In this document: one piece after another, positions 2,801 through 33,820 of the stretch
How positions within the stretch are numbered: the first letter of the stretch is position 1
Layout: the number at the start of each line of letters is the position of its first letter
Assembly (NCBI GenBank): GCA_038874435.1
Contig: JAVZCK010000001.1
Coordinates: forward strand, 154,255-218,254
DNA length: 64,000 nucleotides
Direction: 5' to 3'
From: Thermoplasmata archaeon
GTDB taxonomy: Archaea > Thermoplasmatota > Thermoplasmata > Lutacidiplasmatales > SKW197
Translations under genes and position numbers: made by a program
Notes under the pieces: model-generated
Databases searched by the model: none
Seen by the model: only the letters and a program-made list of their open reading frames with translations
What the model was told of the DNA's origin: nothing

Positions 2801-2807
2801 GAGAAGT

Positions 2808-10688: not shown

Positions 10689-10784
10689 GGCCGGGATGGG
10701 GTAGCCTGGCTATCCTGTGGGACTGTGGTAGCCCCAAAGGGCTGCTGAAATCCTGAGACCCGAGTTCAAATCTCGGTCCCGGCC
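10689..10784 (+). tRNA. tRNA-His (GUG) with a 21-nt intron between positions 37/38 and a genome-encoded G-1
   Basis: Acceptor stem GCCGGGA/TCCCGGC with an extra G-1:C73 pair. T-arm CCGAG-TTCAAAT-CTCGG. After removing 10729..10749 (tagccccaaagggctgctgaa, contains an agccc/gggct hairpin) the anticodon loop is CUGUGGA, i.e. anticodon GUG with G37. The anticodon stem is TGGGA/TCCTG with two G-U wobble pairs and is somewhat weak. Confidence 0.7.
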
Positions 10785-10789
10785 CTAAA

Positions 10790-12621: not shown

Positions 12622-12631
12622 GGTGGTCAAA

Positions 12632-16291: not shown

Positions 16292-19200
16292 ATGTATACT
16301 GGGGGCAAGAAAATGGACGCAAGAAAGATTGAGATAGAGGGCATAAATAAGCTAGTAGAAGAGGGAATACCTGCGGATTATATGCTGCTGTTGCAGACCG
16401 ATGAGGGGCTGGAAACAGACCTGCTTGTGAGACAGTATATAAAGGAAGCACTGACTAAAGGAGAGATTTGTATTGCGGTGTTATCCGAGAGTTCACCAGA
16501 TGACTTTAAAAAGTTGATGAGTGCAATAGGAATAAATGCTGAGACCCATGAAAAGAATGGCACGCTCTACATTGTGGACTGGTATTCCTTCAGAAATGAA
16601 AGAATAATAGGGGTAGAGGAGAAAGGTGCAATTTACAAATGCTCAAAGAGTTTAACAAATGTGGAAATTGCAATTTCAAAAATTCTGAAGAAAATTGAAG
16701 GCAAAAAATTCAGAGTTTATTCAGACATTCTTTCAAATGCTATAAAAGTTTTTGGCTTCGAAACCGCATTCAAGTTTTCGCAAGGGCTGACAGCGAGAAT
16801 CAAGAAATACAATGGCGGAGCTCTGTTCAAAATTTCCAAGACGATGCATGAGCAGAAGGTAATTTCCGCGTTTCACTCGCATTTCAACGGTGTACTGGAC
16901 ATTGAGCATCGAAGGGAAGAGGAGAGGGTGGTTGCAAGAATAGGAATAATTTCTTTAGATAATTTATTCTATGAAACCTCCTACAAGAAATTGGGTGTGA
17001 GCAAAACAAAGGGCATTATAATTATGGATGAGGAAGAGATGAAGGCAAAGCCAAAACCCGTTGTGAAGAAAGTTGTGAAAGAAGAGGTGGCAGAAGAGGA
17101 GACAGCAGAGGAGGAGGGTGGAGAGAAAATTGAAGAAATGAAAGGCTCAAGTGTTCTCATTTATGAGGAGGACCCCAAACACATCTACAAACTCTATCGC
17201 CAATTTCTTTCGGAAGGAATGCCAGGGCTCTGTGTTAGCACCACATTCCCAGCTAAACTCAAGAAACTCCATAAATTTGATTCAGAGGTGCTCTGGATTT
17301 CAGAATCCTCAGAGAAAGGTGCAGTGAAGCCAGGTAGAATGGAATTTGAGTTAATGCGTGAAGTGGGCAACTTCTTAAAAAACAACAAGGAAGGTGTGCT
17401 AGTTCTTGACTGTATTGAAACCCTCATCCTTGAAAATGGCTTTGATAAGGTTGTTAAGTTTCTGAAGAAGATTGGTGACATGGCCGCGGTGAACGGCAAC
17501 ACGGTTCTGGCTGTGATAAATGACAAGAGCATGGAGCAGGAGAAGCTGTATGTGCTTTCGAAAAGCTTTGATATGAAAATAACTCGTGAAGAACTGGAGA
17601 AGGAAGCAAAGAAGCCAAAGCCAGTTGAGGTAAAACCAGAAGTCGTGCCTGGGGCAAAGGAAGAGGTTGTGTCTGCAGAAGAGGAGAAACCAGTTGTTGC
17701 ACCTGCGGTGGAAAAAGAAGAGGTGAAGGTAGAAAAAGAGCCAGAGGCAGTGAAGGAAGAAAAGGCATTGGTTGGTAGAGAAGCATTTACAAATGGGTTG
17801 AAGAAGAGTGTGACTGCGAGAGAGGCCTACACCAATGGACTTGGAAAGCGGAAGCCAGGGTATGTAAACGGATTGAAGAAACCTGGCATGAGGCAAAGAC
17901 CAGCAAAAGTTAGCCGGGTAAAACAGGTTGTTGTGGGACTTGTGGTTGTGGTAATTGCCATCTCAGTTTTTGCATTCTGGCTTTTCACGATTCCTTCAGA
18001 AAAAATTAAGGTGGATGGAAACATAGATGATTGGCAGGGGCTTGCGGTTTATAAAGACAGTGAGGACTTTGCAAACCCAGACATAAAAATCACAGAATAC
18101 AGCATTTACTACAGCAATGAAAAATGCTATTTCTATGTGAAAGTTGCTGGCACTGCGTTTAATGGTGCAAACAGTGGCTATGATACCCTTGTTCTGTTTA
18201 TCGACAAGGACAGGAATCCAAACACTGGCTACAGGGTGGAGAACATAGGAGCAGATGCAAAGATAGAGATTAGCGGATTCAATGGCAACATTCATACTTC
18301 ATCAGTGGCAGTGTTTAAAGAAGGGAGTACATCTATAAAGCCAGAATTGAATTACAGTGCCTGGGAAAGTGTTGGCGGTGTGGTCGTGGAGAAAAGCGGG
18401 AACATTGTTGAAGGAAGTGCGAAGATTACAGGAATGACAGAGCCAATAGGCCTTGTTGCGATGCGACACTATGAGGGCAGTGTTTATGCAGAGAAACGGG
18501 GCATGGCGCTGGTAAGCAAAACTGAAGGAAGTTTAGTGGTTTACCAGAATTTTATTGGCAATGATGTGGTATATGCAGATGCTGATGTGCTCGAGCTAAG
18601 ATTGATTGCAAAGGGTAAGGATGTGCATGTGGAAAGCATAAGCGTGGCAAATGCGAATGTGAGTTTACCAAAGAAGGACATTGCAGTGAATGAAGAAGTG
18701 GTGGTGAGTTGCAAAGCAAAGAGCTTGACAAATGGTAAGGCATTTGAGTTTGGTGTACAGAGTGTGGACACGAATGTACCCTACAGAATTGTGGGCAACG
18801 GTGGCAAAGCATACTTTGGTTCCTTACCTTCAGGAATTGTGATTGATGGTGCGTTTGGTGATTGGCAGGGTGTGGAGAAGGGGAGTGATGTAAGTGGAGA
18901 TGCAAGCCAGAACATTGATTTGCGAGAGTATGCCAGTGCAATTGCAAGCAATGCATACTTCTACATGGCAGTGGATGGCACAATGCTTGCTGGCTGCGAA
19001 ATCCCTGTGCTTGGTGCCAGACCCCCAGTGCAGCCAGGACCACCAACGCCAGTGGTGATAAAAGAAAATCTGGGCACGGATGTGGCAAGGGTTTACATTG
19101 ATTTGATGAATTCTACAATCAACACCTTCAATCCAGCAATGATTTCTCATGGCTATCTGATTGAGTTACAAGGGAGAAATGGACAGGTAGTAAGTGCAAG

Positions 19201-22200
19201 GGCCTGGAAGTGGGAGAATGGTGTTAAGGCAGAGGAAATCCAGAATCCAAACATTGCTCATGGTTTGAGCGATGGTAAAATTGAGTTCAGTGTTGCAGGC
19301 AGTGCTCTTGCTGGCCTCAATAACGACACGAAATTCTACTTTGAGATGACAAACTGGCTTGGCGAAAAAGATGCAAGTGAGTTTGCTTACAGAGCAGGAA
19401 AAATCCAGCGTGAAAACACTATGGCAAATGGCGGGACAAGAGGCACACCACATTCACCGATACATATAATCGGTGATGTTGGGTTTCAAACAGAAGCACA
19501 GTTGAATGGGTGGCCTGGTGATGGAACCCAAGGAAATCCATACATTATAGATGGATATGAAATAGATGGAGGACAAGCACCAGCATTAGGTATGTATGGC
19601 ATCTGGATAGAGAACACGAATGTGTATTTTGTAATAAGAAACTGCACAGTTTACAATGCGACAAATTCTGGCAGTGCACCTTACGGTGCAGGAATTGCAC
19701 TAAACAATGTGAGGAATGGAACAATAGAAAACAACAAGTGCAATAACTCAATATATGGGATTTATCTATATGGGAATTCACGATTCAACATAATAACAAA
19801 TAACAATGCCTCTAGCAACAGCTATGGTGCACATTTGAACTACACAAACAACACCATTTTAACATTCAACACCATTACTAATAATGGAAACTATGGTCTT
19901 TACGTAGCTTCTTATTCCACAAACAACACCATAGCCTACAATAATGTCTCCAGCAACTCTAACTACGGCATTTACATCTACTCCTATTCCACAAACAACA
20001 CCATAGCCTACAATAATGTCTCCAGCAACTCTAACCATGGCATTTACATCTACTCCTATTCAATCAATAACACCATAACAAATAACAATGTATCCAACAA
20101 CTCCAAGGAGGGAATCCGTGTTGAGTCTGGGTGTTCCTACACAAAAATCAGCGGTAACAATGTATCTAGAAATATGGGACACGGAATTTTTGTCTATACG
20201 ATAACCTCATACTGCTCTATAGAGAGAAATACCGTTTTCAATAATAGCTGGACTGGAATATATGTTAATGGGAACGCTGGTGGCTACGGATATATCAATA
20301 TCTCTCGCAATGTTGTCTATTCCAATGGATATGGTGGTTATGACTATCACGGTATCTTTCTATACCAGTGTGTGGCTTGTAATGTGACTGAAAATAAAAT
20401 TTATGCAAATAATAACACCGGAATTTGCATATACTATAATTCTATGGGCCACAACATCACAAGAAATAATGTCTCAGATAATAAAGGAATAGGGATATAC
20501 TTACGTGGTTCACAAACAAATAACAATAAAATCATGTATAATTTATTTTATAACAACTCAGCGGAGGGCGTACTTATTTCAATTAATGCGTATAATAATG
20601 TAATCCACCATAATAGTTTCTGGAAAAACAATGGTTCTGCAACAAGAGGTGTAAATGGAAACCCACAGGCGCGAGATATACAAGATATATCTTTACAAAA
20701 TTACTGGTACGATGCTTCCACATACGAGGGAAATTACTGGAGCAATTGGGATGGAAGTGGATGGGGAACATCTAGTGCATACCCTGTAAATGGAACATGG
20801 AGATACGACATGTATCCAATCTCGATGCCAGTACTCTATCCACTCAACATAACAAGCAACGAGGACTTTGCATTCTATGCTATGCTTTACGGCTGGCCTG
20901 GAAATGGCACGAAACTAAATCCATACATTATTGATGGATACTACATAAACGGTAATGGGACTTTGAACTGCACATACATAGCAAATACAGATGTGTATTT
21001 TGTAATCCGGAACTGCTTGCTGAAGAACGCGAGTTTGAGCGATAGAATTGGTATTTATCTGACAGATGTAAAAAACGGAACTTTATTTAATAATACTATC
21101 AGCAATTGTTGGCGAGGAATCTATTTGTATGATGTCACAGACACGACTATAACTGAGAACAAAATTCCAGGCACATCTGGCAATGTGGGAGTTCGATTGG
21201 AAAATAGTTATGGAAATGTAATTCGGAGGACCCATATCTATGCTGTTTCATCATCAGGAGTTCTTCTATCCAACAGTAGTTTCAATTACCTGTCCGAGAA
21301 CAAAGTGAACAACACAAATTATGGGTTATCCTTATTCTCTTCCTCAAATAACAATATAATAACAAACAACAATCTATCTTATAATTTCTATGGGATTCAG
21401 GTCTCAGCCTCAAGCTATAACAACATCACCTATAACTGGATTTGCAACAGCACAAACTATGGAGTGTATATTGCATCTGGCTCATCAGGGAACTCTATTC
21501 ATCATAACAACTTTATCGGCAACAACGGTGCAGGCAAGGGTGTGAACGGCAACTGCCAGGCGTATGATGATGTTGGCGGGAACTACTGGAATAAAAGTAT
21601 CGGACAGGAAGGCAACTACTGGAGTAACTGGGATGGTACTGGTTGGGGCACTTCAAGTGCCTATCCGATAAACGGCGGTTCTGGTGGTGCGGATTGGTAT
21701 CCATTATCCAACAGAACATTTGCTCCGCTGCATATTGTTGGTAACGAGGAGTTTGTTTTCTATGCAAAACTCTATGGCTGGCCAGGTGCTGGAATTTCGG
21801 CAAATCCATACATCATAGATAGATACTATCTCAATGGTAATGCGACAGGCATTCCTTCATCTTACAACATCTGGATTGAGAACACGAATCTTTACTTTAG
21901 GATTTCTAACTCAACAATAAGAAACGCCACAGACAATATAGCGTCTCCGTACGGTGCTGGAATAGCGTTTATCTCCGTTACAAATGGAGTTGTGGATAAC
22001 AATACAGTTACAAACAATGTTGATGGTATTTACATTAAAATGTCAAATGGACTGAATATAAAAAATAACAATATTTCATTTAATTCGGAAACAGGAATAG
22101 ATATCTATGAGTGCAGTTACCTCACGATCACTGGCAATACAATGTACTATGACGGTATCCATTTAGATGGTGGGCAGGTTAGCCACTGGAATACCCACAT

Positions 22201-25200
22201 GATTCAAACAACTAACACAGTTAATGGAAAACCTATCAGGTATTACAGTAACCAAACTGGCAGTGCTGTAGATACTCTTGCAGGGCAGATAATCCTGGCA
22301 AACTGTATAGCGATGACAGTCAATGGTGTAGCAATTAATAATACCACCACTGCACTTCTCATCGGTTTTTCAAGGAATACGACAATCACAAACAATAACT
22401 TTTCGGATTGCAGATTCTGTGCAATTTTTATGCGAAATACAGAAAATGATACCATAAAATCAAATGTTCTTCTTAGAAATACCCATTATGGAGTATATTC
22501 AAATTCCGCCAACAATACGGAGATGGAATGGAATCTGGTCTCAGACAATGTGGATTACGGAATTTGTATCGTGTATTTCACATATGGAAGAATATCCAAT
22601 AATACTGTGCTCAGAAACAATTATGGAGGTATGGCACTCTTCTATGGTGGGAATAACACATTGCTGAATAACAACATTTCTCAGAATTACCTAGGCCTCA
22701 TTATAAGTAATAGCGGCTCAAACACAGTTACTTATAACACCTTCAGAACCAACATGAATTATGCAGTTCAAATTTATTCTGGATGTACTAACAATGTTCT
22801 GCATCACAACAATTTCTTCCAGAACAGAGGAGCGACTAAGGGAAATTCAGGTTTGAGTCAGGCCTATGATATCTCTGGGGCAAGCACATGGTATACTGGA
22901 TATCAGGGCAACTACTGGAGCAACTGGGATGGACATAACTGGAGCAGCTCAAATGCCTATCCTATTGATGGTGGAGTCGCTGCAGATTTCTTCCCATTGA
23001 AGCTGCCGACCAGGTTGCCAATAAGGATAAACAGCAATGCTGATTTTACACCTGCAAACGGGGTTAAAAGTGGAACTGGCTCACCCTGGGACCCCTACAT
23101 TATCTCCGACTGGGAGATTGACGGCACAGGCTATGGCTCCTGTATCTATATTGGGAACACAACCGCCTATTTCGTTATCAAGAACTGCTATCTCCACAAT
23201 GCAACAGGAAATGGTAATCTGTATTATGATAATGCCGCTGTTCAGCTGCGAAATGTGAAAAATGGAACTGTGAAAGAGAGCGTAATTTTAAACTCAACAA
23301 TCGGTGTTTACATTTGTCAAAATTCTGCTGGAATCACAGTACATAACAACACGATTTCTAATGGTGGTGATTTTGGTCAGGGTGTTTACATACAATCTTC
23401 AAGCAACAACACAATCACAAATAACACAATTTTTGACAATTACAACGGCATTTATATTGCATATTCTCCAAACAACACTATTGAAAACAACACAATTTAC
23501 AGTAATGGACAACATGGAATTTACATATATGATGCAGATAACAACACAATCCAACGAAACAATATTCATCATAACACCCAAGCTGGAATATACTCAAACT
23601 ATGGTGATAGCAATGTTATTCTCTTCAATGAAATCCATGAAAATAATGACGGTGTAAACTTAACCCACTCCACGTTCAACATTGTATCTGAGAACAATAT
23701 GTCAAACAACTTTGGATACGGGCTGTACATCTATGATTCAAACAATAATGTGATAAAGTATAACAAAATTCATAGTTGTGGCGAAGGAATCTTAATTGAT
23801 ACGTCGGATAGTATAACAATATTCCACAACAACATTTCCCAATCAGGCACTCATGGTCTCAGGTTTGCATATTCTTCAACTGGAACTATAGTTTTCTACA
23901 ACATTTTCTATGCCAACACAAATTTCGGCGTTTGTATTGCTGATGGAGCCACTGCCATCACAATTCATCACAACAGCTTCATAATGAACAACGGTGCAGG
24001 CAAGGGCGTTGTCGGTAATAATCAGGCATACGATGAGGTGGGCGGCAACTCTTGGTATGACGATACCGCGCAAGAAGGAAATTACTGGAGTAATTGGGAT
24101 GGCAAGGATTGGGGGACTTCAGACGCTTACTGGATTGGTGGTTATGAAACCTCTGACCACTATCCACTCTCCAAGCCAGTTCTTCCTCCACTTCACATCA
24201 ATGGAAATGCAGAGTTTGCCTATTACGCTGCGTTTTATGGTTGGGATGGCAATGGCACACCAAGTAATCCCTACAGAATAAGCAAGTACTACATAAATGG
24301 AGAGGGATTTGCATATTGCATATGGATAGAGAATACCACAGTGTATTTTAATGTTACAGATTGTGATTTACGAAACGCATCGCTAATTGATGACGACCCG
24401 CATGGCGCCGGGATTGCAATTTACAATGGTTCAAATGGTACAATTGGTTGGAATAATATAGCGAATAACTGGGTAGGTGTATTCCTCAACAATGCTTTGA
24501 ATTGCAGCATTGTTGAAAATAATTTGACGCACAACGGAATTGCAATTTTTGGTGATGCAGTTGAAGCATGGACTTCGCATGAAATTGATACTACCAACAT
24601 TGTGAACGGACAGCCAGTCTATTATTACAAGGATAGAGATTGGATTACAGTGCCGGAAGACGCAGGCCAGGTACTGATAGCGAATTGTACGAACATTATC
24701 GTGGCCAATATAACTACAGGAAATGCCACAATGGGTGTGGAGGCGGGTTTCAGCAGTGGGCTCAAGATAATGAACATGAGTTCATATTATAATCTGTTTG
24801 GAGCAATGATTGTGGGTTGTGATGACACCCAAATTACGAATTCTACTTTTGATACATCTTATGTATCCGGTGTTGAAATTCAATTCAGCACAAATGTTGT
24901 GATAGAGGAGAATGAGTTTAGTGCTACATTTCCTTTTGGCGACAAAGGAATCGGAGCATACCATTCTCTTGGTCTTCTAATAACAAGGAACGAAATTAAC
25001 AACATTCGTATAGGTATCCTATTTGAGACCTGTCCTCTCTCTCAGATAACTCAGAATGTGATAAATTATCGTGGAGAAAACTGGAATGATGCAGGCGTCA
25101 GAATATACAACTCCTCGTATGCATTTGTAGCTCAAAATCAGATAACCAGCATAATGGGAGATGGGTGCGGCATTTTCCTTGAGGCGACTGACAATGATAC

Positions 25201-27598
25201 TATTTCCAACAACGATATATCTGGTAACCCATCTGGATTTTCTGGTTCTGGGATCATTGTGGAATACTCGAAGAGCATTCGACTCTCAGAAAACATTGTT
25301 TACAATCATTTGCAGTATGCAATTTACATCACTGCATCCACCAGATGCGATGTGAGAGATAACAATATTTATAGTAGTTATTATGGTATCTTCGTTTATT
25401 CAGCGAATAGTAACAATGTTACATACAACGAGGTGATCGGGAACAATTATGGGATTCAGATCTCAAATGCCAATAACAACAATATCACATACAATAGCGT
25501 GACTTCCAATTCGGTCTATGGTATTGGTTTAGCATCTGCCTCTAGTAATAAGATTTTCCATAATGCGATTGCCCAGAACAATATCGGAATGTACATCTTT
25601 TCTTCCTCAACAAACAACAACATTACATACAATAATTTCAGTTGGAACATAGGTTATGGAATTAGTATTGTTCAAGGTTCATCTTCCAACATAATTCATT
25701 ACAACACCTTTATCGCAAACAACGGAGCTACTAGAGACGCTAATGGCAACCGCCAGGCAAAAGATGATGTGGGTGGAAATTCCTGGTACAATGGCACAAA
25801 CCAGAAAGGCAATTACTGGAGTAACTGGGATGGGGATGGCTGGGGCACAGCAAGTGCCTACCCGATTGATGGTATGGCGGGGGCAAGCGACTGGTATCCA
25901 CTCTCAGAACCGGCAATGCCAAAGCTTCCACGCCTTCATATTATAGGGAATGCAAACTTCAGTTACTTTGCGTCTATCTATGGATGGCTAGGGAATGGGG
26001 CAGCATGGGACCCCTACATAATTGACGGTTACGAAATAGACGGCGAAGGAGATTCTTACAGCATATGGATAGAGAACACGAATGTATATTTCATAATCCA
26101 GAACTGTAAAGTTTGGAATGCTACGAATATGAGTGCCAATCCGGGTGGCTCAGGAATGGCACTCTGGAATGTGTCAAATGGCACGATATACAACAACGCA
26201 GTGATACAGAATGCCAACGGCATTTATTTGAGCGTTTGCCACGGCAGTAACTTGATTGTAGGCAACAATGTACGAACAAACTCCGATGTAGGCATATCGG
26301 TTGATACCTGTGAGGATATTAGCATATATAGTAATGTTGTGGAATCAAACAATATAGGAATAAGTTTAGTATATTCATCATCCTGCACAATTTATGACAA
26401 TCATGTTACAGGAAATAATGGTAACGGAATTTATCTCTATGATACATCTACCTACAACTATGTTGGATATAACATAATAAACAGTAATAATAACCATGGA
26501 ATATATCTAAAAGAGGGCTGTGACTACAACATTATTGAGTATAATGATGTGGGCTCAAATTCTAATGGTATCTGTTTGGACCAGTCAAACTACAACACGA
26601 TTACAAACAATACAGTCGCAGGTAACGATGGTGGCATCTATTTGTCCTCCTCAAGCTACAACACAATAACAAACAATAATGTTATTAACAACAACCACGA
26701 TGGCATTCAGTTGGTTTCATCAAGCAATAATAACAACATAACAAACAACAATGCCTCTGAGAATCTTGCTCGTGGTATCTATTTAAATTCATCAAACTAT
26801 AACAAACTAACGGATAACACTGTCTCTGACAATTTGCAGTATGGCATCTTTTTGCAATCTTCAACTAACAACAACATAACAAACAACAATGCAGCAAATA
26901 ATAGTTATGGCATATATTTAGAGCAATCAAGTGCCAATATTCTCTCGGGCAACACTGTACATGGGAACGCATGGTATGGTATAATCATTCATGCTTCGAG
27001 CAATTACAATGTTGTTAAGAACAACAATGTTTCAAGTAACATAGGTTATGGGATTTCTCTATGGAATTTTTGCGGTTACAATAACATTTCTGAGAATTTT
27101 GTGGTCGGTAACAACGGTGTTGGAATTGGAATATACTATTCAAGCTATAATGACATCTACCTGAACAATGTTTCTGAGGGAAATGAGGATGGAATTCGTC
27201 TTTGGGCCTCCAGCAATAACAATAACATCACATACAACACACTTTACCACAACACAAATTATGGAATTAACATCACAGACAGCTCAACTGGGAACTACAT
27301 CTATCACAACTACTTCATCGGCAACAACGGTGCTGGTAAAGGTGTGTCAGGGAGCTGCCAGGCATACGACGAGGTTGGTGGAAACATATGGTATAACGGG
27401 ACCCTGCTGGAAGGCAATCAATGGAGTAACTGGGATGGTAACGGTTGGGGTACATCAAATGCCTATCCTATTGATGGTGGTGCCGGTGCAAGTGACTGGT
27501 ATCCACTTGGAGGGCCTGTGAACGAACTCTCTGTCCTACCAATTTTCGGCATTGTTATCCTAGGTATCTTGCTAATGAACTGTCGGAGAAGAAAGTGA
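16292..27598 (+). CDS. Giant (3768 aa) modular membrane protein. Cytoplasmic degenerate KaiC-like domain plus DUF835-like domain plus 'TNGL' motifs, one TM helix, then two 'DGxFxDWQG' domains and six right-handed parallel beta-helix (PbH1/NosD-like) supermodules, ending in a C-terminal TM anchor
   Basis: Single uninterrupted ORF. TM helix at ~17927-17996. C-terminal TM at 27535-27585 followed by RRRK. Six N-cap motifs 'NPYIIDGYxIxG...WIENTxVYFVIRNC' and six C-cap motifs 'HHNxFIxNNGAGKGVxGNxQAYDxVGGNxWY...EGNYWSNWDGxGWGTSxAYPIDGG..DWYPL'. True start may be 16313. Confidence 0.8.
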   Translation: MYTGGKKMDARKIEIEGINKLVEEGIPADYMLLLQTDEGLETDLLVRQYIKEALTKGEICIAVLSESSPDDFKKLMSAIGINAETHEKNGTLYIVDWYSFRNERIIGVEEKGAIYKCSKSLTNVEIAISKILKKIEGKKFRVYSDILSNAIKVFGFETAFKFSQGLTARIKKYNGGALFKISKTMHEQKVISAFHSHFNGVLDIEHRREEERVVARIGIISLDNLFYETSYKKLGVSKTKGIIIMDEEEMKAKPKPVVKKVVKEEVAEEETAEEEGGEKIEEMKGSSVLIYEEDPKHIYKLYRQFLSEGMPGLCVSTTFPAKLKKLHKFDSEVLWISESSEKGAVKPGRMEFELMREVGNFLKNNKEGVLVLDCIETLILENGFDKVVKFLKKIGDMAAVNGNTVLAVINDKSMEQEKLYVLSKSFDMKITREELEKEAKKPKPVEVKPEVVPGAKEEVVSAEEEKPVVAPAVEKEEVKVEKEPEAVKEEKALVGREAFTNGLKKSVTAREAYTNGLGKRKPGYVNGLKKPGMRQRPAKVSRVKQVVVGLVVVVIAISVFAFWLFTIPSEKIKVDGNIDDWQGLAVYKDSEDFANPDIKITEYSIYYSNEKCYFYVKVAGTAFNGANSGYDTLVLFIDKDRNPNTGYRVENIGADAKIEISGFNGNIHTSSVAVFKEGSTSIKPELNYSAWESVGGVVVEKSGNIVEGSAKITGMTEPIGLVAMRHYEGSVYAEKRGMALVSKTEGSLVVYQNFIGNDVVYADADVLELRLIAKGKDVHVESISVANANVSLPKKDIAVNEEVVVSCKAKSLTNGKAFEFGVQSVDTNVPYRIVGNGGKAYFGSLPSGIVIDGAFGDWQGVEKGSDVSGDASQNIDLREYASAIASNAYFYMAVDGTMLAGCEIPVLGARPPVQPGPPTPVVIKENLGTDVARVYIDLMNSTINTFNPAMISHGYLIELQGRNGQVVSARAWKWENGVKAEEIQNPNIAHGLSDGKIEFSVAGSALAGLNNDTKFYFEMTNWLGEKDASEFAYRAGKIQRENTMANGGTRGTPHSPIHIIGDVGFQTEAQLNGWPGDGTQGNPYIIDGYEIDGGQAPALGMYGIWIENTNVYFVIRNCTVYNATNSGSAPYGAGIALNNVRNGTIENNKCNNSIYGIYLYGNSRFNIITNNNASSNSYGAHLNYTNNTILTFNTITNNGNYGLYVASYSTNNTIAYNNVSSNSNYGIYIYSYSTNNTIAYNNVSSNSNHGIYIYSYSINNTITNNNVSNNSKEGIRVESGCSYTKISGNNVSRNMGHGIFVYTITSYCSIERNTVFNNSWTGIYVNGNAGGYGYINISRNVVYSNGYGGYDYHGIFLYQCVACNVTENKIYANNNTGICIYYNSMGHNITRNNVSDNKGIGIYLRGSQTNNNKIMYNLFYNNSAEGVLISINAYNNVIHHNSFWKNNGSATRGVNGNPQARDIQDISLQNYWYDASTYEGNYWSNWDGSGWGTSSAYPVNGTWRYDMYPISMPVLYPLNITSNEDFAFYAMLYGWPGNGTKLNPYIIDGYYINGNGTLNCTYIANTDVYFVIRNCLLKNASLSDRIGIYLTDVKNGTLFNNTISNCWRGIYLYDVTDTTITENKIPGTSGNVGVRLENSYGNVIRRTHIYAVSSSGVLLSNSSFNYLSENKVNNTNYGLSLFSSSNNNIITNNNLSYNFYGIQVSASSYNNITYNWICNSTNYGVYIASGSSGNSIHHNNFIGNNGAGKGVNGNCQAYDDVGGNYWNKSIGQEGNYWSNWDGTGWGTSSAYPINGGSGGADWYPLSNRTFAPLHIVGNEEFVFYAKLYGWPGAGISANPYIIDRYYLNGNATGIPSSYNIWIENTNLYFRISNSTIRNATDNIASPYGAGIAFISVTNGVVDNNTVTNNVDGIYIKMSNGLNIKNNNISFNSETGIDIYECSYLTITGNTMYYDGIHLDGGQVSHWNTHMIQTTNTVNGKPIRYYSNQTGSAVDTLAGQIILANCIAMTVNGVAINNTTTALLIGFSRNTTITNNNFSDCRFCAIFMRNTENDTIKSNVLLRNTHYGVYSNSANNTEMEWNLVSDNVDYGICIVYFTYGRISNNTVLRNNYGGMALFYGGNNTLLNNNISQNYLGLIISNSGSNTVTYNTFRTNMNYAVQIYSGCTNNVLHHNNFFQNRGATKGNSGLSQAYDISGASTWYTGYQGNYWSNWDGHNWSSSNAYPIDGGVAADFFPLKLPTRLPIRINSNADFTPANGVKSGTGSPWDPYIISDWEIDGTGYGSCIYIGNTTAYFVIKNCYLHNATGNGNLYYDNAAVQLRNVKNGTVKESVILNSTIGVYICQNSAGITVHNNTISNGGDFGQGVYIQSSSNNTITNNTIFDNYNGIYIAYSPNNTIENNTIYSNGQHGIYIYDADNNTIQRNNIHHNTQAGIYSNYGDSNVILFNEIHENNDGVNLTHSTFNIVSENNMSNNFGYGLYIYDSNNNVIKYNKIHSCGEGILIDTSDSITIFHNNISQSGTHGLRFAYSSTGTIVFYNIFYANTNFGVCIADGATAITIHHNSFIMNNGAGKGVVGNNQAYDEVGGNSWYDDTAQEGNYWSNWDGKDWGTSDAYWIGGYETSDHYPLSKPVLPPLHINGNAEFAYYAAFYGWDGNGTPSNPYRISKYYINGEGFAYCIWIENTTVYFNVTDCDLRNASLIDDDPHGAGIAIYNGSNGTIGWNNIANNWVGVFLNNALNCSIVENNLTHNGIAIFGDAVEAWTSHEIDTTNIVNGQPVYYYKDRDWITVPEDAGQVLIANCTNIIVANITTGNATMGVEAGFSSGLKIMNMSSYYNLFGAMIVGCDDTQITNSTFDTSYVSGVEIQFSTNVVIEENEFSATFPFGDKGIGAYHSLGLLITRNEINNIRIGILFETCPLSQITQNVINYRGENWNDAGVRIYNSSYAFVAQNQITSIMGDGCGIFLEATDNDTISNNDISGNPSGFSGSGIIVEYSKSIRLSENIVYNHLQYAIYITASTRCDVRDNNIYSSYYGIFVYSANSNNVTYNEVIGNNYGIQISNANNNNITYNSVTSNSVYGIGLASASSNKIFHNAIAQNNIGMYIFSSSTNNNITYNNFSWNIGYGISIVQGSSSNIIHYNTFIANNGATRDANGNRQAKDDVGGNSWYNGTNQKGNYWSNWDGDGWGTASAYPIDGMAGASDWYPLSEPAMPKLPRLHIIGNANFSYFASIYGWLGNGAAWDPYIIDGYEIDGEGDSYSIWIENTNVYFIIQNCKVWNATNMSANPGGSGMALWNVSNGTIYNNAVIQNANGIYLSVCHGSNLIVGNNVRTNSDVGISVDTCEDISIYSNVVESNNIGISLVYSSSCTIYDNHVTGNNGNGIYLYDTSTYNYVGYNIINSNNNHGIYLKEGCDYNIIEYNDVGSNSNGICLDQSNYNTITNNTVAGNDGGIYLSSSSYNTITNNNVINNNHDGIQLVSSSNNNNITNNNASENLARGIYLNSSNYNKLTDNTVSDNLQYGIFLQSSTNNNITNNNAANNSYGIYLEQSSANILSGNTVHGNAWYGIIIHASSNYNVVKNNNVSSNIGYGISLWNFCGYNNISENFVVGNNGVGIGIYYSSYNDIYLNNVSEGNEDGIRLWASSNNNNITYNTLYHNTNYGINITDSSTGNYIYHNYFIGNNGAGKGVSGSCQAYDEVGGNIWYNGTLLEGNQWSNWDGNGWGTSNAYPIDGGAGASDWYPLGGPVNELSVLPIFGIVILGILLMNCRRRK
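19913..20056 (+). repeat. Two nearly identical tandem 72-bp units (24-aa beta-helix rungs 'YSTNNTIAYNNVSSNSN[Y/H]GIYIYS') inside the giant gene
   Basis: Units 19913-19984 and 19985-20056 differ at ~2 positions (aactacggc vs aaccatggc). A diverged third unit follows. Confidence 0.85.
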
Positions 27599-27729: not shown

Positions 27730-30700
27730 GTGGTAATGATGAAATTGGAGAGTAAAACTACGAAGAGTTTAGGGCTTAGAAATGGCAGAGACAACACCCG
27801 TGGTTTTACAAATGGGCTGACAAATGGTTTCACCAACGGGAATGGTTATAGGGCAGGAAGAAAATTGAAGAAAAGCAGAAGCCATGGCAAAGTTTTGGCT
27901 GTTTTTGTGCTTGCAATGCTTGTGGTTAGCGTTGTAGCGGTTCTCACATGGCAGAGCAGCAGTGCTGGTGCGATAAGGATAGATGGCAGTTTTGAGGACT
28001 GGCAGGGCGTTGAAAAGACGACGAAGAAAAGGGATTTTGGTGTGCCAGAGAACATAGACCTTGCTGAGTATGCAACTGCAGAAACGGGCAAGAATGTGGC
28101 ATTCTACGCAAAGGTGTATGGCAATTTGCTTGCTGGTGATGGTAGATATACAATTGAGGCACCCTCAGAGAACCCAGTGTATGTGGCAAATCAGAGGGAA
28201 ATGGCAATCCCAAATGCAAATGGCAGAGATGTAGCTTATGTGTTTGTTGACGCAGATAACAATCCTGCAACAGGTTTCAAACCATCGCAAAACTTCGCAG
28301 TGGGTGCGGAGAAATCGATAGAGATTGTGGGCAAGAATGGGAAGATAGAGGCAAGTAGGGTGCTGACATTTGCTGGTGTGGTGCAGCAGGAGTGGAATTG
28401 GCACATTGGAGAGAGTGTGGCTACAGCAACAAATGGCAAAGAAATGGAGACGATGGCAGGTAAGAATTTACTTGGTGTTGGTGAAAATTACGCAGTTTAC
28501 TTCTACATGATTGACTGGCAGAACATGGAATGCAAGCTGGAGAATGCGTTGCGGTGTGAAAATGCGAGGTTCACAATGTTTGGGCTGTATCTGTCTCCTC
28601 AAGCAGAAGTGCGGACCAGAGATGTGGGAATGGAAATAAGAGGCACACCACACGCAGTGATTCACATAAACGGGAATGCGGATTTTGCTACACAAGCAAC
28701 AAGTGAGGGCTGGCCTGGTGATGGAAGCCAGAGCAACCCATACATAATTGAAGGCTACGAGATAGACGCAAATGGCGGAAGTCATTGCATCTGGATAGAG
28801 AACACTAATGTATATTTTGTGATAAGAAACTGCAAGCTTTACAATGCGACAGATTCATCAGGTCTTTTCCCATATTCATCAGGAATTTGCCTAAGGGATG
28901 TACAATTTGGCAAACTAGAGGCTAACCATGTATATGGGACCTTCAGAGGGGTCTTTCTTGATTCTTCACACAATAACATCATAATCAATAACAATGCTTC
29001 CGGTAACACATATTATGGCATATATTTAACTTCCTCGACAAAGAATACTCTAACACTTAACAATGGCTCTTCCAATGGATATGAAGGCATTAGACTATCT
29101 TCATCGAGCAATGACAACCACCTTACAAACAACAATGTCTCTGGCAACTTCCAATATGGCATTCGTTTGATATCATCAAATAACAATAACATCACAAATA
29201 ATACCGTATCTACCAATGCCCAATACGGGATCAGGTTAGCATCTTCAAGTGACAACAAAATAACATACAATTGGATTTGCAACAATACAAACTATGGAGT
29301 CAACATCACGTCTGGTTCCACAGGCAACACAATCCACCACAACAATTTCATCGGTAACAACGGTGCAGGCAAAGGCGTTTCTGGCAATTGCCAGGCATAC
29401 GATGATTCTGGCGGCAACTTTTGGTATGACAGCGCAGCCCATGAGGGCAATTACTGGAGTAACTGGGACAGACGTAACTGGGGCACACCAAATGCCTATC
29501 CCATTGATGGAGGCGCTGGTGCGAGCGACTGGTATCCTATCAGGACGCATCTTCCAATACACATCAACGGTGACGCAGATTTCGCAAACCAGGCAGCAAA
29601 TGAGCACTGGCAGGGTAATGGAAGCCAGAGCAATCCCTACATTATTGAAGAATATGAGATAGACGGTGCGGGTGGACCATACTGTATATGGATAGAGAAC
29701 ACAACAGTTTATTTTACAATCAGAAATTGCACCGTGTTTAACGCTACATCTACCAGCAGTGCACCTCAGGGCACAGGAATTGCATTGAATAATGTTAAAA
29801 ATGGAACAGTGGAAAATAATATATGCTATAACTCAAGGTATGGCATTAACCTCTATGGAAATTCCCAGAACAACATAGTAACAAGCAACAATGTTAGTGG
29901 TAACCTCAACTATGGTATCCGTCTGTATTCGGCAAGCAATAATGAGATATCTAGTAATTATGGGTTTGGGGGTAGCCTTTGTACGGTCTATTTGTATACT
30001 TCCAGCAACAACAACATCACAAACAATGTTGCCAGTAGCAATACAAACTATGGCATCTACCTGTATGGCTCCGGCAACAACAACATAACCTATAACCACA
30101 TTTACGGCAATGCAAACTACGGACTTTATATTACATCTGCCTCCACTGCCAACAAAATCCATTACAATACATTTATTGGCAACAAGGGGGCAAGCAAGGG
30201 GATAAGTGATGGCAAATATCAGGCATACGATGGTGTTGGTGGGAATTTGTGGTATGACGACACCAAACAGAAAGGCAATTACTGGAGTAACTGGGACGGG
30301 AATGGCTGGGGCACCTCAGGTGCTTATTCCATTGACGGCATTGGTGGTGCAAGCGACTGGTATCCGCTTTCATTACTTCCGCTTTTACCTCTCCACATAA
30401 ACGGCAATTCCGAGTTTGTCGCGTTCGCCCAATTCTATGGATGGGCGGGTGATGGTAGTCAATCTAATCCATACATCATCGAGAATTACGAGATAGATGC
30501 GAATAACAGCAGATACTGCATTTGGATAGAAAACACGACAGTTTCCTTCTTGATCATAAATTGCGCTGTTTCCAATGCGACCGTTTCTGGCAGTGCACCA
30601 TATGGTGCAGGCATCGCCCTCAAAAATGTAACAAATGGAAGGATAGAAAACAACACATGTACTAATTCAAATTATGGAATTTACTTCTACAGTGGCTCAA

Positions 30701-31806
30701 ACAATAATGTCATAATTGGGAACAGGGCATTTGGCAGTACTAACGGCATTTACTTATATTTCTCAAGCAACAACACTATTGTAAACACAAATGCCTCTGG
30801 CAATTCATATTACGGCATCTATTTGTCTGCCTCTTCTAACAACACCATAACTAATAATTATGTTTCCGGCAACGATGACGCTGGCATTTACTTGGATTCT
30901 ACCTCAAGTTACAACAAAATAACTAGCAACATTCTCACAGGCAATACCATGGGCATAGGAGTATATTCGGGAAACTATAATACAATTTCAAACAACGATG
31001 TCTATGGCAACAATGGCTTCGGCATCTATTTGAGTGGTTCCACGGGAGATAATAACATTACAAATAACAGAGTTATCAATAACAGTTATTACGGGATAAT
31101 CCTAGAAGATGCACACAACAACAATATTCAGAACAATACAGTTGCTGGTAACCACATATATGGAATCTTCATGTATGGGTCAACCTTCAACAATATCTGT
31201 GATAACAATCTAAGTGGAAATTCAGGTCATGGCATCCATTTGTATTCTGGATCCAACTCTAATACAATTACAAACAACACAATCTCGGGTAATTCTTACA
31301 ATGGTGTTTGGCTGCTAGGAGCTGATGGAAACTACATATTCCTCAACAATATTTCAAACAACGGAGTATCTGGTATTTACTTGGGATACGCAAACAATAA
31401 CATTGTGACTTATAACTGGATTTGCAACAATGCAAATTATGGTGTGTACATTACTGATACTTCCACAGGCAACACAATCCATCACAACAACTTTATTGGA
31501 AATAGGCCACCAAGCAGGGAGATAAAACCAGGCACCAACTGTCAGGCATACGACGATGTAGGAGGCAACTTCTGGTGTGACAATACCGCGCAGGAGGGCA
31601 ACTACTGGAGTAACTGGGACGGCACGGGTACTGGAAGCGAACTTGCCTATCCAATAGATGGCGGTGCAGGCGCAAGCGACTGGTACCCACTTGGTGGACC
31701 TGTTAGTGAAAGTATCAGCATTCTCTTTGCGTTGCTAGTCAATGCAATGCTTGGCTTCGGAGTAATTTACCTACGAAAGAGAAAATTGGAAAACAAAAGT
31801 ATTTAA
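27730..31806 (+). CDS. Large (1358 aa) beta-helix surface protein, paralogous to the giant protein. Cytoplasmic 'TNGL' repeats, signal-anchor TM, 'IDGSFEDWQGV' domain, three beta-helix supermodules, C-terminal TM plus basic tail
   Basis: 'GFTNGLTNGFTNGNG' then TM 'VLAVFVLAMLVVSVVAVLTW'. Three N-cap ('SNPYIIE.YEIDA') and C-cap ('GNYWSNWDG') sets. C-terminus '...GPVSESISILFALLVNAMLGFGVIYLRKRK'. Confidence 0.8.
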   Translation: MVMMKLESKTTKSLGLRNGRDNTRGFTNGLTNGFTNGNGYRAGRKLKKSRSHGKVLAVFVLAMLVVSVVAVLTWQSSSAGAIRIDGSFEDWQGVEKTTKKRDFGVPENIDLAEYATAETGKNVAFYAKVYGNLLAGDGRYTIEAPSENPVYVANQREMAIPNANGRDVAYVFVDADNNPATGFKPSQNFAVGAEKSIEIVGKNGKIEASRVLTFAGVVQQEWNWHIGESVATATNGKEMETMAGKNLLGVGENYAVYFYMIDWQNMECKLENALRCENARFTMFGLYLSPQAEVRTRDVGMEIRGTPHAVIHINGNADFATQATSEGWPGDGSQSNPYIIEGYEIDANGGSHCIWIENTNVYFVIRNCKLYNATDSSGLFPYSSGICLRDVQFGKLEANHVYGTFRGVFLDSSHNNIIINNNASGNTYYGIYLTSSTKNTLTLNNGSSNGYEGIRLSSSSNDNHLTNNNVSGNFQYGIRLISSNNNNITNNTVSTNAQYGIRLASSSDNKITYNWICNNTNYGVNITSGSTGNTIHHNNFIGNNGAGKGVSGNCQAYDDSGGNFWYDSAAHEGNYWSNWDRRNWGTPNAYPIDGGAGASDWYPIRTHLPIHINGDADFANQAANEHWQGNGSQSNPYIIEEYEIDGAGGPYCIWIENTTVYFTIRNCTVFNATSTSSAPQGTGIALNNVKNGTVENNICYNSRYGINLYGNSQNNIVTSNNVSGNLNYGIRLYSASNNEISSNYGFGGSLCTVYLYTSSNNNITNNVASSNTNYGIYLYGSGNNNITYNHIYGNANYGLYITSASTANKIHYNTFIGNKGASKGISDGKYQAYDGVGGNLWYDDTKQKGNYWSNWDGNGWGTSGAYSIDGIGGASDWYPLSLLPLLPLHINGNSEFVAFAQFYGWAGDGSQSNPYIIENYEIDANNSRYCIWIENTTVSFLIINCAVSNATVSGSAPYGAGIALKNVTNGRIENNTCTNSNYGIYFYSGSNNNVIIGNRAFGSTNGIYLYFSSNNTIVNTNASGNSYYGIYLSASSNNTITNNYVSGNDDAGIYLDSTSSYNKITSNILTGNTMGIGVYSGNYNTISNNDVYGNNGFGIYLSGSTGDNNITNNRVINNSYYGIILEDAHNNNIQNNTVAGNHIYGIFMYGSTFNNICDNNLSGNSGHGIHLYSGSNSNTITNNTISGNSYNGVWLLGADGNYIFLNNISNNGVSGIYLGYANNNIVTYNWICNNANYGVYITDTSTGNTIHHNNFIGNRPPSREIKPGTNCQAYDDVGGNFWCDNTAQEGNYWSNWDGTGTGSELAYPIDGGAGASDWYPLGGPVSESISILFALLVNAMLGFGVIYLRKRKLENKSI

Positions 31807-33810: not shown

Positions 33811-33820
33811 GAATTAGGTA

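What the first reader, a model, noticed from the sequence alone, without database searches (positions are those of the whole stretch)
16292..27598. 3768-aa fusion of cytoplasmic KaiC-like/DUF835 pseudo-ATPase domains to a giant six-module beta-helix ectodomain
One uninterrupted 11.3-kb ORF. Its cytoplasmic N-terminal ~540 aa contain a KaiC/RecA-like domain that lacks the P-loop and a DUF835-like domain, separated by PEVK-like charged linkers. A single TM helix follows. The extracellular part is >3100 aa and is built from two 'DGxFxDWQG' domains and six capped right-handed beta-helix supermodules. A C-terminal TM ends the protein with an RRRK tail. A RecA-fold cytoplasmic module fused to a giant adhesin- or S-layer-like ectodomain anchored at both ends is not a described architecture that I know of. 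It suggests inside-out or outside-in coupling between the envelope and the KaiC-like network.
Basis: partly seen in the sequence, partly recalled or inferred. Interest (0 to 1): 0.85.

Follow-up and report, generated by a model that had tools for sequence, protein, structure and literature searches.

The report
Giant archaeal surface protein, pseudo-KaiC head
This real 3,768-residue gene of an uncultured Thermoplasmata archaeon joins two dead KaiC-type ATPase domains inside the cell to a huge sugar-coated beta-helix stalk outside, and it belongs to a so far undescribed family of giant surface proteins that are nearly always encoded next to a live KaiC ATPase, so it probably links the cell surface to archaeal KaiC signalling.

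Summary
There is one open frame at 16292-27598, with a probable true start at ATG 16313. It encodes a KaiC-family domain with no P-loop, a DUF835 domain, two membrane helices, two 'DGxxxDW' domains and six capped beta-helix modules.

The fusion is not an artefact. An independent MAG that is 90% identical has it too. A more distant species encodes the KaiC-like part as a separate gene that overlaps the next gene by 8 nt.

The architecture is not unique. At least 27 of the 150 best cluster representatives (up to 3,215 aa, Thermoplasmata and 'Euryarchaeota' MAGs) share this plan:
- a dead KaiC head
- (T/V)NGL repeats
- a membrane helix
- a pair of DOMON/CBM9-like domains
- a variable payload (Kelch, FG-GAP or unknown; beta-helix here)
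- a C-terminal anchor

In 7 of 7 loci examined, a stand-alone KaiC ATPase with an intact P-loop sits directly upstream of the giant gene. In 4 of those 7, a roughly 200-aa protein with weak winged-helix matches comes before it. In this window an intact KaiC lies 5.5 kb downstream.

Best reading: a surface receptor or adhesin that signals through a partner KaiC ATPase. This is a new variant of the 'inactivated KaiC sensor' idea of Makarova, Galperin and Koonin. Direction and ligand are unknown.

The parts
16292..27598 (+). Giant ORF, 3768 aa. The probable real start is ATG 16313 (M8).
   Evidence: The start is inferred from L005 and P0005.
16328..17035 (+). iKaiC: an inactivated KaiC-family RecA-fold domain (aa 13-248). 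The P-loop is replaced by QTDEGLETD, the catalytic LEE by LSESSP, and Walker B is RVYSDILS.
17036..17161 (+). Charged linker 1 (aa 249-290). It replaces the stop codon and 8-nt gene overlap seen in L002-L004. It contains an in-frame ATG at 17138 after a purine-rich stretch.
   Evidence: pLDDT is below 50 in the model.
17171..17569 (+). DUF835 domain (aa 294-426), a second, shorter inactivated KaiC-like domain.
   Evidence: Pfam PF05763 at E 2e-26. An alpha/beta fold at high pLDDT. Called iKaiC in PMC5847659.
17585..17776 (+). Charged K/E/P/V-rich linker 2 (aa 432-495).
   Evidence: Read from the sequence.
17780..17890 (+). Cytoplasmic juxtamembrane repeats FTNGL, YTNGL and YVNGL (aa 499-528) followed by a basic stretch. 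This is a hallmark of the family.
   Evidence: Conserved in alignment A3. Present in 55 of 56 TM-DGW proteins.
17927..17995 (+). Signal-anchor transmembrane helix (aa 546-568), N-terminus inside.
   Evidence: Hydropathy peak of 3.02 with basic residues on the N-terminal side.
17990..19399 (+). Conserved membrane-proximal ectodomain core: DOMON/CBM9-like sandwich 1 (aa 567-731), a middle Ig-like sandwich (aa 736-846) and DOMON/CBM9-like sandwich 2 (aa 851-1036). Each DOMON-like unit opens with DGxxxDW.
19454..27511 (+). Six right-handed parallel beta-helix modules: approximately aa 1055-1527, 1528-1820, 1821-2252, 2253-2642, 2643-3219 and 3220-3740. Each has an N-cap (..GWPG.G...NPYII) and a C-cap (GNYWSNWDG.GWG...YP.DGG...DWYPL). 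They carry most of the 108 sequons of the whole ectodomain (aa 590-3740).
   Evidence: Pfam NosD and Beta_helix. Motifs. The modules are 30-48% identical to one another.
27527..27595 (+). C-terminal transmembrane anchor (aa 3746-3764) with an RRRK tail. It matches no known CTERM sorting-signal model.
27730..31806 (+). Paralogous surface protein with its own TATA-like box: TNGL repeats, TM, one DGW domain, three beta-helix modules and a C-terminal anchor. It has no KaiC head.
   Evidence: P0181 is a similar protein in another MAG.
31828..32265 (+). 145-aa protein with an N-terminal membrane helix and no confident family match.
32231..33109 (+). 292-aa degenerate KaiC-like protein with no P-loop. 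It overlaps both neighbouring genes.
33106..33810 (+). 234-aa KaiC-family ATPase with intact Walker A (GAFGTGKT), LEEEEE and Walker B (RLVIDS). It is the candidate live partner.
   Evidence: Pfam KaiC at E 1.5e-63. Motifs.
33821..34543 (-). 240-aa KaiC-family protein with a degenerate P-loop (GCAGSMKS), convergent with the cluster.

Best explanation
The gene encodes a bitopic surface glycoprotein of an uncultured Thermoplasmata archaeon. It is anchored in the membrane at both ends.

Shown:
- The N-terminal 545 residues stay in the cytoplasm. They carry two catalytically dead KaiC-type RecA domains (iKaiC and DUF835) on flexible charged linkers, then three (F/Y)(T/V)NGL repeats.
- A signal-anchor helix follows, then a conserved pair of DOMON/CBM9-like beta-sandwiches.
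- Next come six beta-helix modules that carry most of the ectodomain's 108 N-x-S/T sequons, then a C-terminal tail anchor.
- The protein is one member of a family with the plan: dead KaiC head, TNGL repeats, TM, DOMON-like pair, interchangeable payload, C-terminal anchor.
- In relatives, the family gene is immediately preceded by a stand-alone KaiC ATPase with an intact P-loop, and often by a small protein with weak winged-helix matches.

Inferred mechanism:
- The dead KaiC domains act as docking or regulatory subunits for the live KaiC-type ATPase. KaiC-family proteins assemble through RecA-type interfaces into rings.
- The occupancy, clustering or tension of the extracellular stalk would then be reported to the ATPase, and through it to a DNA-binding output.
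- The same contact could work in reverse, with the ATPase setting the clustering of the surface protein.
- The DOMON/CBM9-like and NosD-type beta-helix parts most likely bind glycans or surfaces, so the input is probably contact with polysaccharide, mineral or another cell.
- The beta-helix array is a lineage-specific payload added to a conserved signalling chassis.
For: Domain identity and inactivation:
- Pfam KaiC and DUF835.
- Family profile against PDB KaiC, E 1e-33.
- P-loop, catalytic Glu and Walker B are all replaced, while the partner KaiCs keep them.

The fusion is real:
- L005 is 89.6% identical over aa 1-700 and uninterrupted.
- P0176 spans the junction from DGW2 into the beta-helix array.

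Functional linkage of the two dead domains (Rosetta-stone argument):
- In L002, L003 and L004 they are adjacent genes overlapping by 8 nt.
- P0008 has them in the reverse order, and P0006 is a soluble iKaiC-DUF835 protein.

Family:
- At least 27 of the 150 best representatives have iKaiC (or DUF835), TM and DGW.
- Payloads differ: Kelch plus FG-GAP in P0008, none recognised in P0109 and P0146.

Neighbourhood:
- 7 of 7 loci have an orthologous KaiC ATPase with an intact P-loop directly upstream.
- 4 of 7 have a homologous ~200-aa protein with weak HTH_20/IclR/TrmB/MarR matches.
- The window has an intact KaiC at 33106-33810 on the same strand.

Ectodomain:
- DOMON/CBM9-like fold.
- NosD and Beta_helix matches.
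- Sequon bias of 108 against 1.

Concept: DUF835 as iKaiC, and KaiC ATPases as archaeal signalling hubs (PMC5847659).
Against: - There is no direct evidence of any interaction between the dead domains and a live KaiC. No multimer model could be run.
- In this window the live KaiC is not adjacent. It lies 5.5 kb downstream, behind a gene with its own TATA-like box and after an oligo-T tract, so co-transcription is doubtful.
- That KaiC is only about 30% identical to the cassette ATPases of the relatives.
- The winged-helix assignment rests on sub-threshold Pfam scores, and no such gene is seen next to the giant here.
- Relatives with the same TM-DGW chassis carry unrelated heads (HhH, Zn-ribbon) or none. 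The chassis therefore does not need KaiC domains.
- No ligand is known. The beta-helix modules could be purely structural or enzymatic.
- The inter-domain geometry of the model is uncertain (pTM 0.57).
Confidence: 0.5

Rival explanations
1. It is a structural envelope protein or adhesin with no signalling role. The dead KaiC domains serve only as a cytoplasmic oligomerisation or anchoring platform: RecA-type domains form rings, which would bundle several stalks into a spike or lattice. This could stand in for an S-layer in a lineage where some members lack one.
For: - Large size, double anchoring, 108 sequons and the beta-helix and DOMON/CBM9 folds are typical of surface-layer and adhesin proteins.
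- Catalytic residues are lost, so no enzymatic output comes from the head itself.
- The same chassis works with other heads or with none.
- Cultured Thermoplasmatales are reported to lack a paracrystalline S-layer (abstract of PMC12448462).
Against: - It does not explain why a live KaiC ATPase, and often a probable DNA-binding protein, are encoded immediately upstream in 7 of 7 and 4 of 7 relatives.
- It does not explain why the heads are drawn from domains used in archaeal signal transduction.
Confidence: 0.25
2. The KaiC-type ATPase and the dead KaiC head form a dedicated assembly or quality-control device for the giant protein itself. The head and the TNGL repeats would hold the nascent chain at the membrane. 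The ATPase would assist insertion, folding or turnover of the >3,000-residue ectodomain, much as KaiC-like ArlH/FlaH serves a membrane machine.
For: - The ATPase gene is tightly coupled to the giant gene by translation, with gaps of 14 nt or less or overlaps.
- TNGL repeats sit just before the signal anchor in 55 of 56 proteins, whatever the head.
Against: - The paralogue at 27730-31806 and P0180/P0181 export long ectodomains with no KaiC head.
- KaiC-family proteins are not known as translocation motors (established knowledge).
- In the window the ATPase is not adjacent.
Confidence: 0.12
3. It is an extracellular polysaccharide-degrading or -modifying enzyme array. The beta-helix modules would be lyases or hydrolases tethered to the cell, and the head would be incidental.
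For: - NosD/Beta_helix (pectate-lyase-like) repeats and CBM9-like domains occur in carbohydrate-active enzymes.
- Another giant surface hydrolase, an S8 protease with glucodextranase-B domains, lies at 43344-49061.
Against: - No catalytic family was matched, only generic repeat models.
- Payloads in relatives are non-enzymatic propellers (Kelch, FG-GAP) or unknown. Catalysis is therefore not the shared property of the family.
Confidence: 0.08
4. The long ORF is an artefact: a frameshift or assembly join that merges separate genes, or a decaying pseudogene.
For: - In L002-L004 the KaiC-like part is a separate gene. The window differs there by a 4-nt gap that fuses the frames.
- All related contigs break inside the repetitive ectodomain.
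Against: - The same in-frame fusion is present in an independently assembled MAG at about 90% identity.
- The junction is not a homopolymer.
- 11.3 kb stays open with diverged repeats.
- P0176 independently spans the junction from DGW2 into the beta-helix array.
Confidence: 0.03

Closest known systems
DUF835 / 'iKaiC' membrane sensors and the KaiC signalling-hub model (Makarova, Galperin and Koonin 2017, as cited and tabulated in Galperin et al. 2018, PMC5847659)
   Same: - Catalytically inactivated KaiC-family domains (PF06745-like, PF05763, MEDS) are fused to sensor or membrane modules.
- They are encoded near live KaiC ATPases.
- They are archaeal and proposed to act by protein-protein interaction.
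   Different: - The DUF835 proteins recovered here are mostly polytopic membrane proteins with DUF835 at the C-terminus, and those tabulated in the paper are REC/PAS fusions. Here the dead domains are N-terminal.
- They are followed by a single signal anchor and a >3,100-residue ectodomain that is anchored again at the C-terminus.
- The TNGL repeats, the DOMON/CBM9-like pair and the exchangeable giant payloads are not mentioned in the text I could read. The 2017 paper itself was not available.
Single-domain archaeal KaiC-family ATPases PH0284 (2dr3), PH0186 (2zts), SSO2452 (2w0m) and ArlH/FlaH (4yds, 4wia)
   Same: - About 230-residue RecA core with the KaiC-type C-terminal beta-hairpin region.
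   Different: - Those proteins keep Walker A and B and bind ATP. The giant's domain has QTDEGLETD in place of the P-loop and lacks the catalytic Glu pair.
- It is tethered to a membrane protein.
Archaeal and bacterial surface proteins with NosD/CASH-type parallel beta-helix repeats
   Same: - Repeated right-handed beta-helix modules with Asn-rich ladders.
- Many N-x-S/T sequons, suggesting heavy N-glycosylation.
- A C-terminal membrane anchor with a basic tail.
   Different: - No signal peptide; a type II signal anchor is used instead.
- A cytoplasmic signalling-type head.
- No PGF-, PEF- or other CTERM sorting motif was detected.
DOMON / CBM9 superfamily: CBM9 of Thermotoga Xyn10A (1i82), ethylbenzene dehydrogenase gamma (2ivf_C), glucodextranase C-terminal region (1ulv)
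   Same: - An N-terminal 'DGxxxD/E-W' strand, as in CBM9-type modules (the motif resemblance is from my own knowledge).
   Different: - No Pfam match at E 0.1 or below, and 12-14% identity.
- It occurs as a membrane-proximal tandem with an Ig-like spacer.
- The ligand (glycan or haem) is untested.
Receptor pseudokinases, and the bacterial membrane sensor plus soluble ATPase logic
   Same: - Works like: a dead enzyme domain on the cytoplasmic side of a single-pass receptor that regulates a live paralogue.
   Different: - The fold is unrelated (RecA rather than protein kinase). This is an analogy only.

Membership tests
KaiC family (Pfam PF06745; RecA superfamily) | Sequence match above the curated threshold | tested here: met
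   43.4 bits against a cut-off of 26.6 on aa 1-560; 35.1 bits on the full protein. The family profile hits PDB KaiC at E 1e-33.
KaiC family (Pfam PF06745; RecA superfamily) | RecA-type alpha/beta fold of KaiC-like single-domain proteins | tested here: met
   [not shown]
KaiC family (Pfam PF06745; RecA superfamily) | Functional ATPase site: Walker A GxxxxGK[ST], catalytic Glu pair, Walker B hhhhD | tested here: not met
   No Walker A in the protein. QTDEGLETD, LSESSP and RVYSDILS stand where partner KaiCs have GxxGxGK[ST], LEE and RLVIDS. It is therefore a pseudo-ATPase member ('iKaiC').
KaiC family (Pfam PF06745; RecA superfamily) | Hexameric ring assembly and autophosphorylation | not testable with these tools
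   No multimer prediction or biochemistry was available.
DUF835 (PF05763) | Sequence match above the curated threshold over the whole model | tested here: met
   92.6 bits (cut-off 33.1), model positions 4-136 of 136, aa 294-426.
DUF835 (PF05763) | Association with a membrane or sensor module | tested here: met
   Same polypeptide as a TM helix and ectodomain. Relatives are TMn-DUF835 or DUF835-TM-DGW.
iKaiC-TNGL-TM-DGW giant surface protein family (defined here) | N-terminal dead KaiC-type head, cytoplasmic (T/V)NGL repeats, one signal-anchor helix, DGxxxDW DOMON/CBM9-like domains, C-terminal anchor | tested here: met
   All five elements are present. At least 27 of the 150 best representatives share the plan.
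iKaiC-TNGL-TM-DGW giant surface protein family (defined here) | Stand-alone KaiC ATPase with an intact P-loop immediately upstream | tested here: not met
   This holds in 7 of 7 relatives. In the window the upstream gene is GcvT. An intact KaiC lies 5.5 kb downstream at 33106-33810 and is only about 30% identical to the cassette ATPases.
NosD / right-handed parallel beta-helix repeat proteins (PF05048, PF13229, TIGR03804) | Repeated PbH1-type coils above threshold | tested here: met
   NosD 690 bits in 17 stretches. Beta_helix 652 bits in 20 stretches. TIGR03804 in 31 stretches.
NosD / right-handed parallel beta-helix repeat proteins (PF05048, PF13229, TIGR03804) | NosD function (nitrous-oxide reductase maturation; nos operon context) | tested here: not met
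   No nos genes in the window. The TIGR04247 score comes from 12 repeated partial stretches. The match reflects repeat-type similarity only.
Archaeosortase or other CTERM-sorted surface proteins (PGF-, PEF-, VPXXXP-CTERM and so on) | C-terminal tripartite sorting signal recognised by an NCBIfam CTERM model | tested here: not met
   No hit for the giant's last 46 aa at E 10 or below. The only hit is a sub-threshold Loki-CTERM match (17.6 against 19.9 bits) for the paralogue.
DOMON / CBM9 superfamily | Beta-sandwich fold similarity | tested here: met
   [not shown]
DOMON / CBM9 superfamily | Sequence-family membership and ligand-binding residues | tested here: inconclusive
   No Pfam hit. Binding residues were not examined.

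The most novel reading that the evidence does not exclude
Uncultured Thermoplasmata may possess a previously unrecognised transmembrane signalling system made of:
- giant, doubly anchored surface receptors with exchangeable ectodomain payloads;
- a dead KaiC head and a TNGL-repeat docking motif;
- a dedicated live KaiC ATPase;
- a winged-helix output protein.

This would be an archaeal counterpart of receptor-pseudokinase or two-component signalling, built entirely from RecA-fold parts. The window protein would be its largest known member and the only type seen so far that carries both kinds of dead KaiC domain fused in this order.
Probability: 0.35. Interest if true: 0.8.

Novelty: new variant of a known kind. 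Interest (0 to 1): 0.62.

Why it matters
How archaea that have few or no histidine kinases sense their surroundings is largely open. The KaiC-hub proposal is still almost entirely computational.

This family offers a concrete, testable input device:
- an extracellular binding stalk;
- a single membrane pass;
- a dead KaiC head;
- a live KaiC ATPase encoded next door;
- a likely DNA-binding output.

It also provides a natural Rosetta stone. The same parts occur split, fused and swapped in order, which argues that iKaiC and DUF835 work together. The conserved TNGL juxtamembrane repeat could be a new docking or targeting signal.

For annotation, these proteins are currently mislabelled 'RAD55 family ATPase' or 'NosD'.

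Tried and rejected
- First homologue search with aa 1-560. It gave only 4 hits, probably because the low-complexity linkers filled the word-candidate list. Domain-only and exhaustive searches were needed.
- Makarova et al. 2017 (mBio 8:e01959-17, PMC5717392). The paper is not held in the library. Its content is cited only through Galperin et al. 2018.
- MAFFT alignments A5 and A6. These were built to give AF2 a deep alignment for both cytoplasmic domains. They put DUF835 fragments onto the iKaiC domain, or split the iKaiC rows. That shows the two domains are homologous, but the alignments were unusable. A7 was used instead, with the DUF835 part supported by only three sequences.
- Archaeosortase-type sorting signal. 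None was found.
- Assembly or frameshift artefact. Rejected.
- NosD function. Rejected on context.
- Exact look-up of the window protein in public assemblies. It is not on record. Every related contig ends inside the ectodomain, so no full-length orthologue could be compared.
- Literature searches for a description of this architecture. None was found. The library lacks most subscription journals, so absence is weak evidence.
Full report
**1. The observation**

The window carries one uninterrupted frame at 16292..27598 on the + strand, 3768 codons long.

Pfam places these domains:
- KaiC (PF06745) at aa 13-248: 43.4 bits on aa 1-560, against a curated cut-off of 26.6.
- DUF835 (PF05763) at aa 294-426: E 2e-26, covering the whole model.
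- NosD in 17 stretches and Beta_helix in 20 stretches over the rest.

NCBIfam agrees, with KaiC, FlaH/ArlH and para_beta_helix models.

A hydropathy scan gives two and only two membrane helices, at aa 546-568 and 3746-3764. Basic residues precede the first, and RRRK follows the second.

The protein has no Walker A motif anywhere. N-x-S/T sequons number 108 in the ectodomain and 1 in the first 560 residues.

'DGxxxDWQG' occurs at aa 575 and 852. Six modules each end in GN[YQ]WSNWDG, at aa 1480, 1774, 2206, 2596, 3173 and 3708. Each begins with a '..GWPG.G...NPYII' cap.

One correction applies. The orthologue in L005 has no ATG at the first position, and the split homologue P0005 begins at the equivalent of M8. 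The start is therefore probably ATG 16313.

**2. Is the fusion real?**

The closest public relatives are Thermoplasmata MAGs.

In three assemblies (L002, L003, L004; 68-82% identity) the KaiC-like part is a separate 265-aa gene. That gene is P0005, named 'DUF7090 family protein'. It overlaps the DUF835 gene by 8 nt (ATGAATGA). The window differs there by a 4-nt gap that removes the stop and joins the frames.

A closer MAG is QQ_201709_bins_14 (L005). It has the same upstream genes (sulfhydrogenase-like cluster and GcvT). It carries the same in-frame fusion at 89.6% identity over aa 1-700.

A further fragment, P0176, spans the junction from DGW2 into beta-helix modules I and II at 76% identity.

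Repeats within the ORF are only 60-79% identical at the DNA level.

The fusion is therefore an evolutionary event, not an assembly error. The split and fused states together argue that the two dead domains work together.

**3. What the parts are**

The cytoplasmic head:
- A profile of the head's family hits solved KaiC structures at E 1e-33, and Pyrococcus PH0186 and PH0284 at E 1e-20 or better.
- An AF2 model of aa 8-440 (pLDDT 87.5) shows two alpha/beta domains joined by a disordered linker.
- Aligned with live KaiC-type ATPases, the giant has QTDEGLETD for the P-loop, LSESSP for the catalytic LEE, and RVYSDILS for Walker B.
- Family relatives have QGPxGxEK, VSSxSP and RAVxE(I/L)LS at the same places. 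All are pseudo-ATPases.
- DUF835 is listed as 'iKaiC' by Galperin et al. 2018 (PMC5847659).

The region aa 567-1056:
- It has no Pfam match.
- Its AF2 model (pLDDT 80.9) is three beta-sandwiches.

The C-terminal anchor matches no CTERM sorting-signal model.

**4. It is a family, not a singleton**

An exhaustive HMMER search with aa 8-430 found 1963 proteins at E 0.001 or below.

Among the best 150 cluster representatives, at least 27 share this plan:
- a dead KaiC head, or DUF835;
- then 300-450 residues;
- then one TM helix;
- then DGW domains;
- then a variable region;
- then a C-terminal TM helix.

Lengths reach 3215 aa.

Payloads differ. P0008 has Kelch propellers plus FG-GAP, and it carries DUF835 and iKaiC in the opposite order. 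P0109 and P0146 have nothing recognisable. Several have TPR and a zinc ribbon in place of DUF835.

Source names are 'RAD55 family ATPase [Thermoplasmata archaeon]' and 'hypothetical protein [Euryarchaeota archaeon]'.

A profile of the DGW core also finds the same chassis behind other heads: helix-hairpin-helix, zinc ribbon, or none.

P0001 is 69% identical to the giant through aa 1044. It then simply ends in a small domain and an anchor. The beta-helix array is therefore an add-on.

The downstream gene at 27730-31806 is a head-less paralogue with one DGW domain and three beta-helix modules.

One unexpected hallmark appears. One to eight copies of (F/Y/L)(T/V/I)NG(L) lie within 70 residues before the signal anchor in 55 of 56 TM-DGW proteins. 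In the giant they are at aa 499-528.

**5. Context**

In all seven family loci I could read (L007, L009, L010, L011, L012, L013, L014), the giant gene is directly preceded by an orthologous stand-alone KaiC-type ATPase. The gap is 14 nt or less, or the genes overlap. The ATPase has an intact P-loop, GP(A/S)GS(G/A)K(S/T).

In four of the seven loci a homologous ~200-aa protein comes first. It has weak, sub-threshold HTH_20, IclR, TrmB and MarR matches at aa 13-66.

L009 has two giants in tandem behind one ATPase. L011 adds a soluble DUF835 protein.

The window is arranged differently. GcvT lies upstream. The order is then giant, paralogue, a 145-aa membrane protein, a 292-aa degenerate KaiC, and a 234-aa KaiC with an intact GAFGTGKT, LEEEEE and RLVIDS. 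A 240-aa degenerate KaiC lies on the other strand.

An oligo-T tract follows the giant's stop, and a TATA-like box precedes the paralogue. The cluster is therefore probably not one transcript.

**6. Mechanism**

Shown:
- the topology;
- the dead KaiC heads;
- the conserved chassis;
- the exchangeable payloads;
- the conserved adjacency to a live KaiC ATPase.

Inferred: the dead domains dock onto, or build mixed rings with, the live KaiC-type ATPase. This would couple the state of the extracellular stalk to ATPase activity and to a DNA-binding output, or the reverse. The input is probably contact with glycans or surfaces.

I put this at about 0.5. The rivals are:
- a purely structural spike or lattice protein whose heads only oligomerise (0.25);
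- a dedicated assembly or quality-control device (0.12);
- a tethered carbohydrate-active enzyme array (0.08);
- an artefact (0.03).

**7. Comparison and novelty**

The principle is published. Inactivated KaiC domains, DUF835 included, are fused to sensor modules, and KaiC ATPases act as archaeal signalling hubs (PMC5847659, citing Makarova et al. 2017, which I could not read).

I found no description of the following in the searchable literature:
- N-terminal dead KaiC heads on type II, doubly anchored giant ectodomains;
- the TNGL repeat;
- the DOMON-like pair;
- payload swapping;
- the strict ATPase-giant cassette.

Within the family, the window protein is the longest seen. With L005, it is the only type with iKaiC followed by DUF835 in one chain.

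I rate it a new variant of a known kind, with interest 0.62.

Noticed in passing
window 17786-17875 (giant aa 499-528); window about 27790-27840 (paralogue N-terminus); P0020-P0151: Cytoplasmic juxtamembrane repeats of the type (F/Y/L)(T/V/I)NG(L), 1-8 copies just before the signal-anchor helix, occur in 55 of 56 TM-DGW proteins whatever their head. No model in Pfam or NCBIfam covers them, and their function is unknown.
   Followed up: partly
window 17105-17140: An in-frame ATG (M283) follows a purine-rich stretch (GGAGGAGGGTGGAGAG), close to where the separate DUF835 gene starts in L002-L004. Internal initiation could yield an isoform lacking the iKaiC domain.
   Followed up: no
window 27730-31806: A 1,356-aa paralogous surface protein with TNGL repeats, a TM helix, one DGW domain, three beta-helix modules and a C-terminal anchor. 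It has no KaiC head and has its own TATA-like box.
   Followed up: partly
window 32231-34543: A cluster of three KaiC-family genes: a 292-aa degenerate one, a 234-aa one with intact motifs, and a 240-aa one with GCAGSMKS on the opposite strand. It is preceded by a 145-aa membrane protein with no confident family match.
   Followed up: partly
window 43344-49061: A 1,905-aa S8 subtilase with four Glucodextran_B domains plus Big_13 and PPC domains. This is another very large surface protein in the same window. Its ORF overlaps the listed GTG start of the leucyl-tRNA synthetase-like ORF (48982) by 80 nt, so that start is probably further downstream.
   Followed up: no
window 10690-10785: ARAGORN calls a 96-nt tRNA-Pro(UGG) that Rfam does not report at its gathering threshold. 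It may be an intron-containing archaeal tRNA.
   Followed up: no
window 10790-14637: A four-gene sulfhydrogenase-like NiFe hydrogenase cluster (Fer4_22; FAD/NAD-binding; Oxidored_q6; NiFeSe_Hases), syntenic with L005.
   Followed up: no
L009 2208-17892; L011 2727-13141: Variations of the cassette. L009 has two giants (3215 and 1767 aa) in tandem behind one KaiC ATPase. L011 has a soluble 373-aa DUF835 protein before the ATPase, and its giant carries DUF835 and iKaiC in reversed order.
   Followed up: partly
L012 1794-2603; L013 2799-3383; L008 15734-16291: Small Arf/Ras/Roc-type GTPase genes lie within a few genes of the cassette or of the paralogue-like gene in three loci.
   Followed up: no
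P0034, P0050, P0072-P0127 (DGW2 region): Many family members carry an Asp-rich insert (DSDRDTVPD..D..P.DFNNDG..D...GD.D.DG..DY) inside the second DOMON-like domain. It resembles calcium-binding thrombospondin-type-3 motifs. The window protein lacks it.
   Followed up: no
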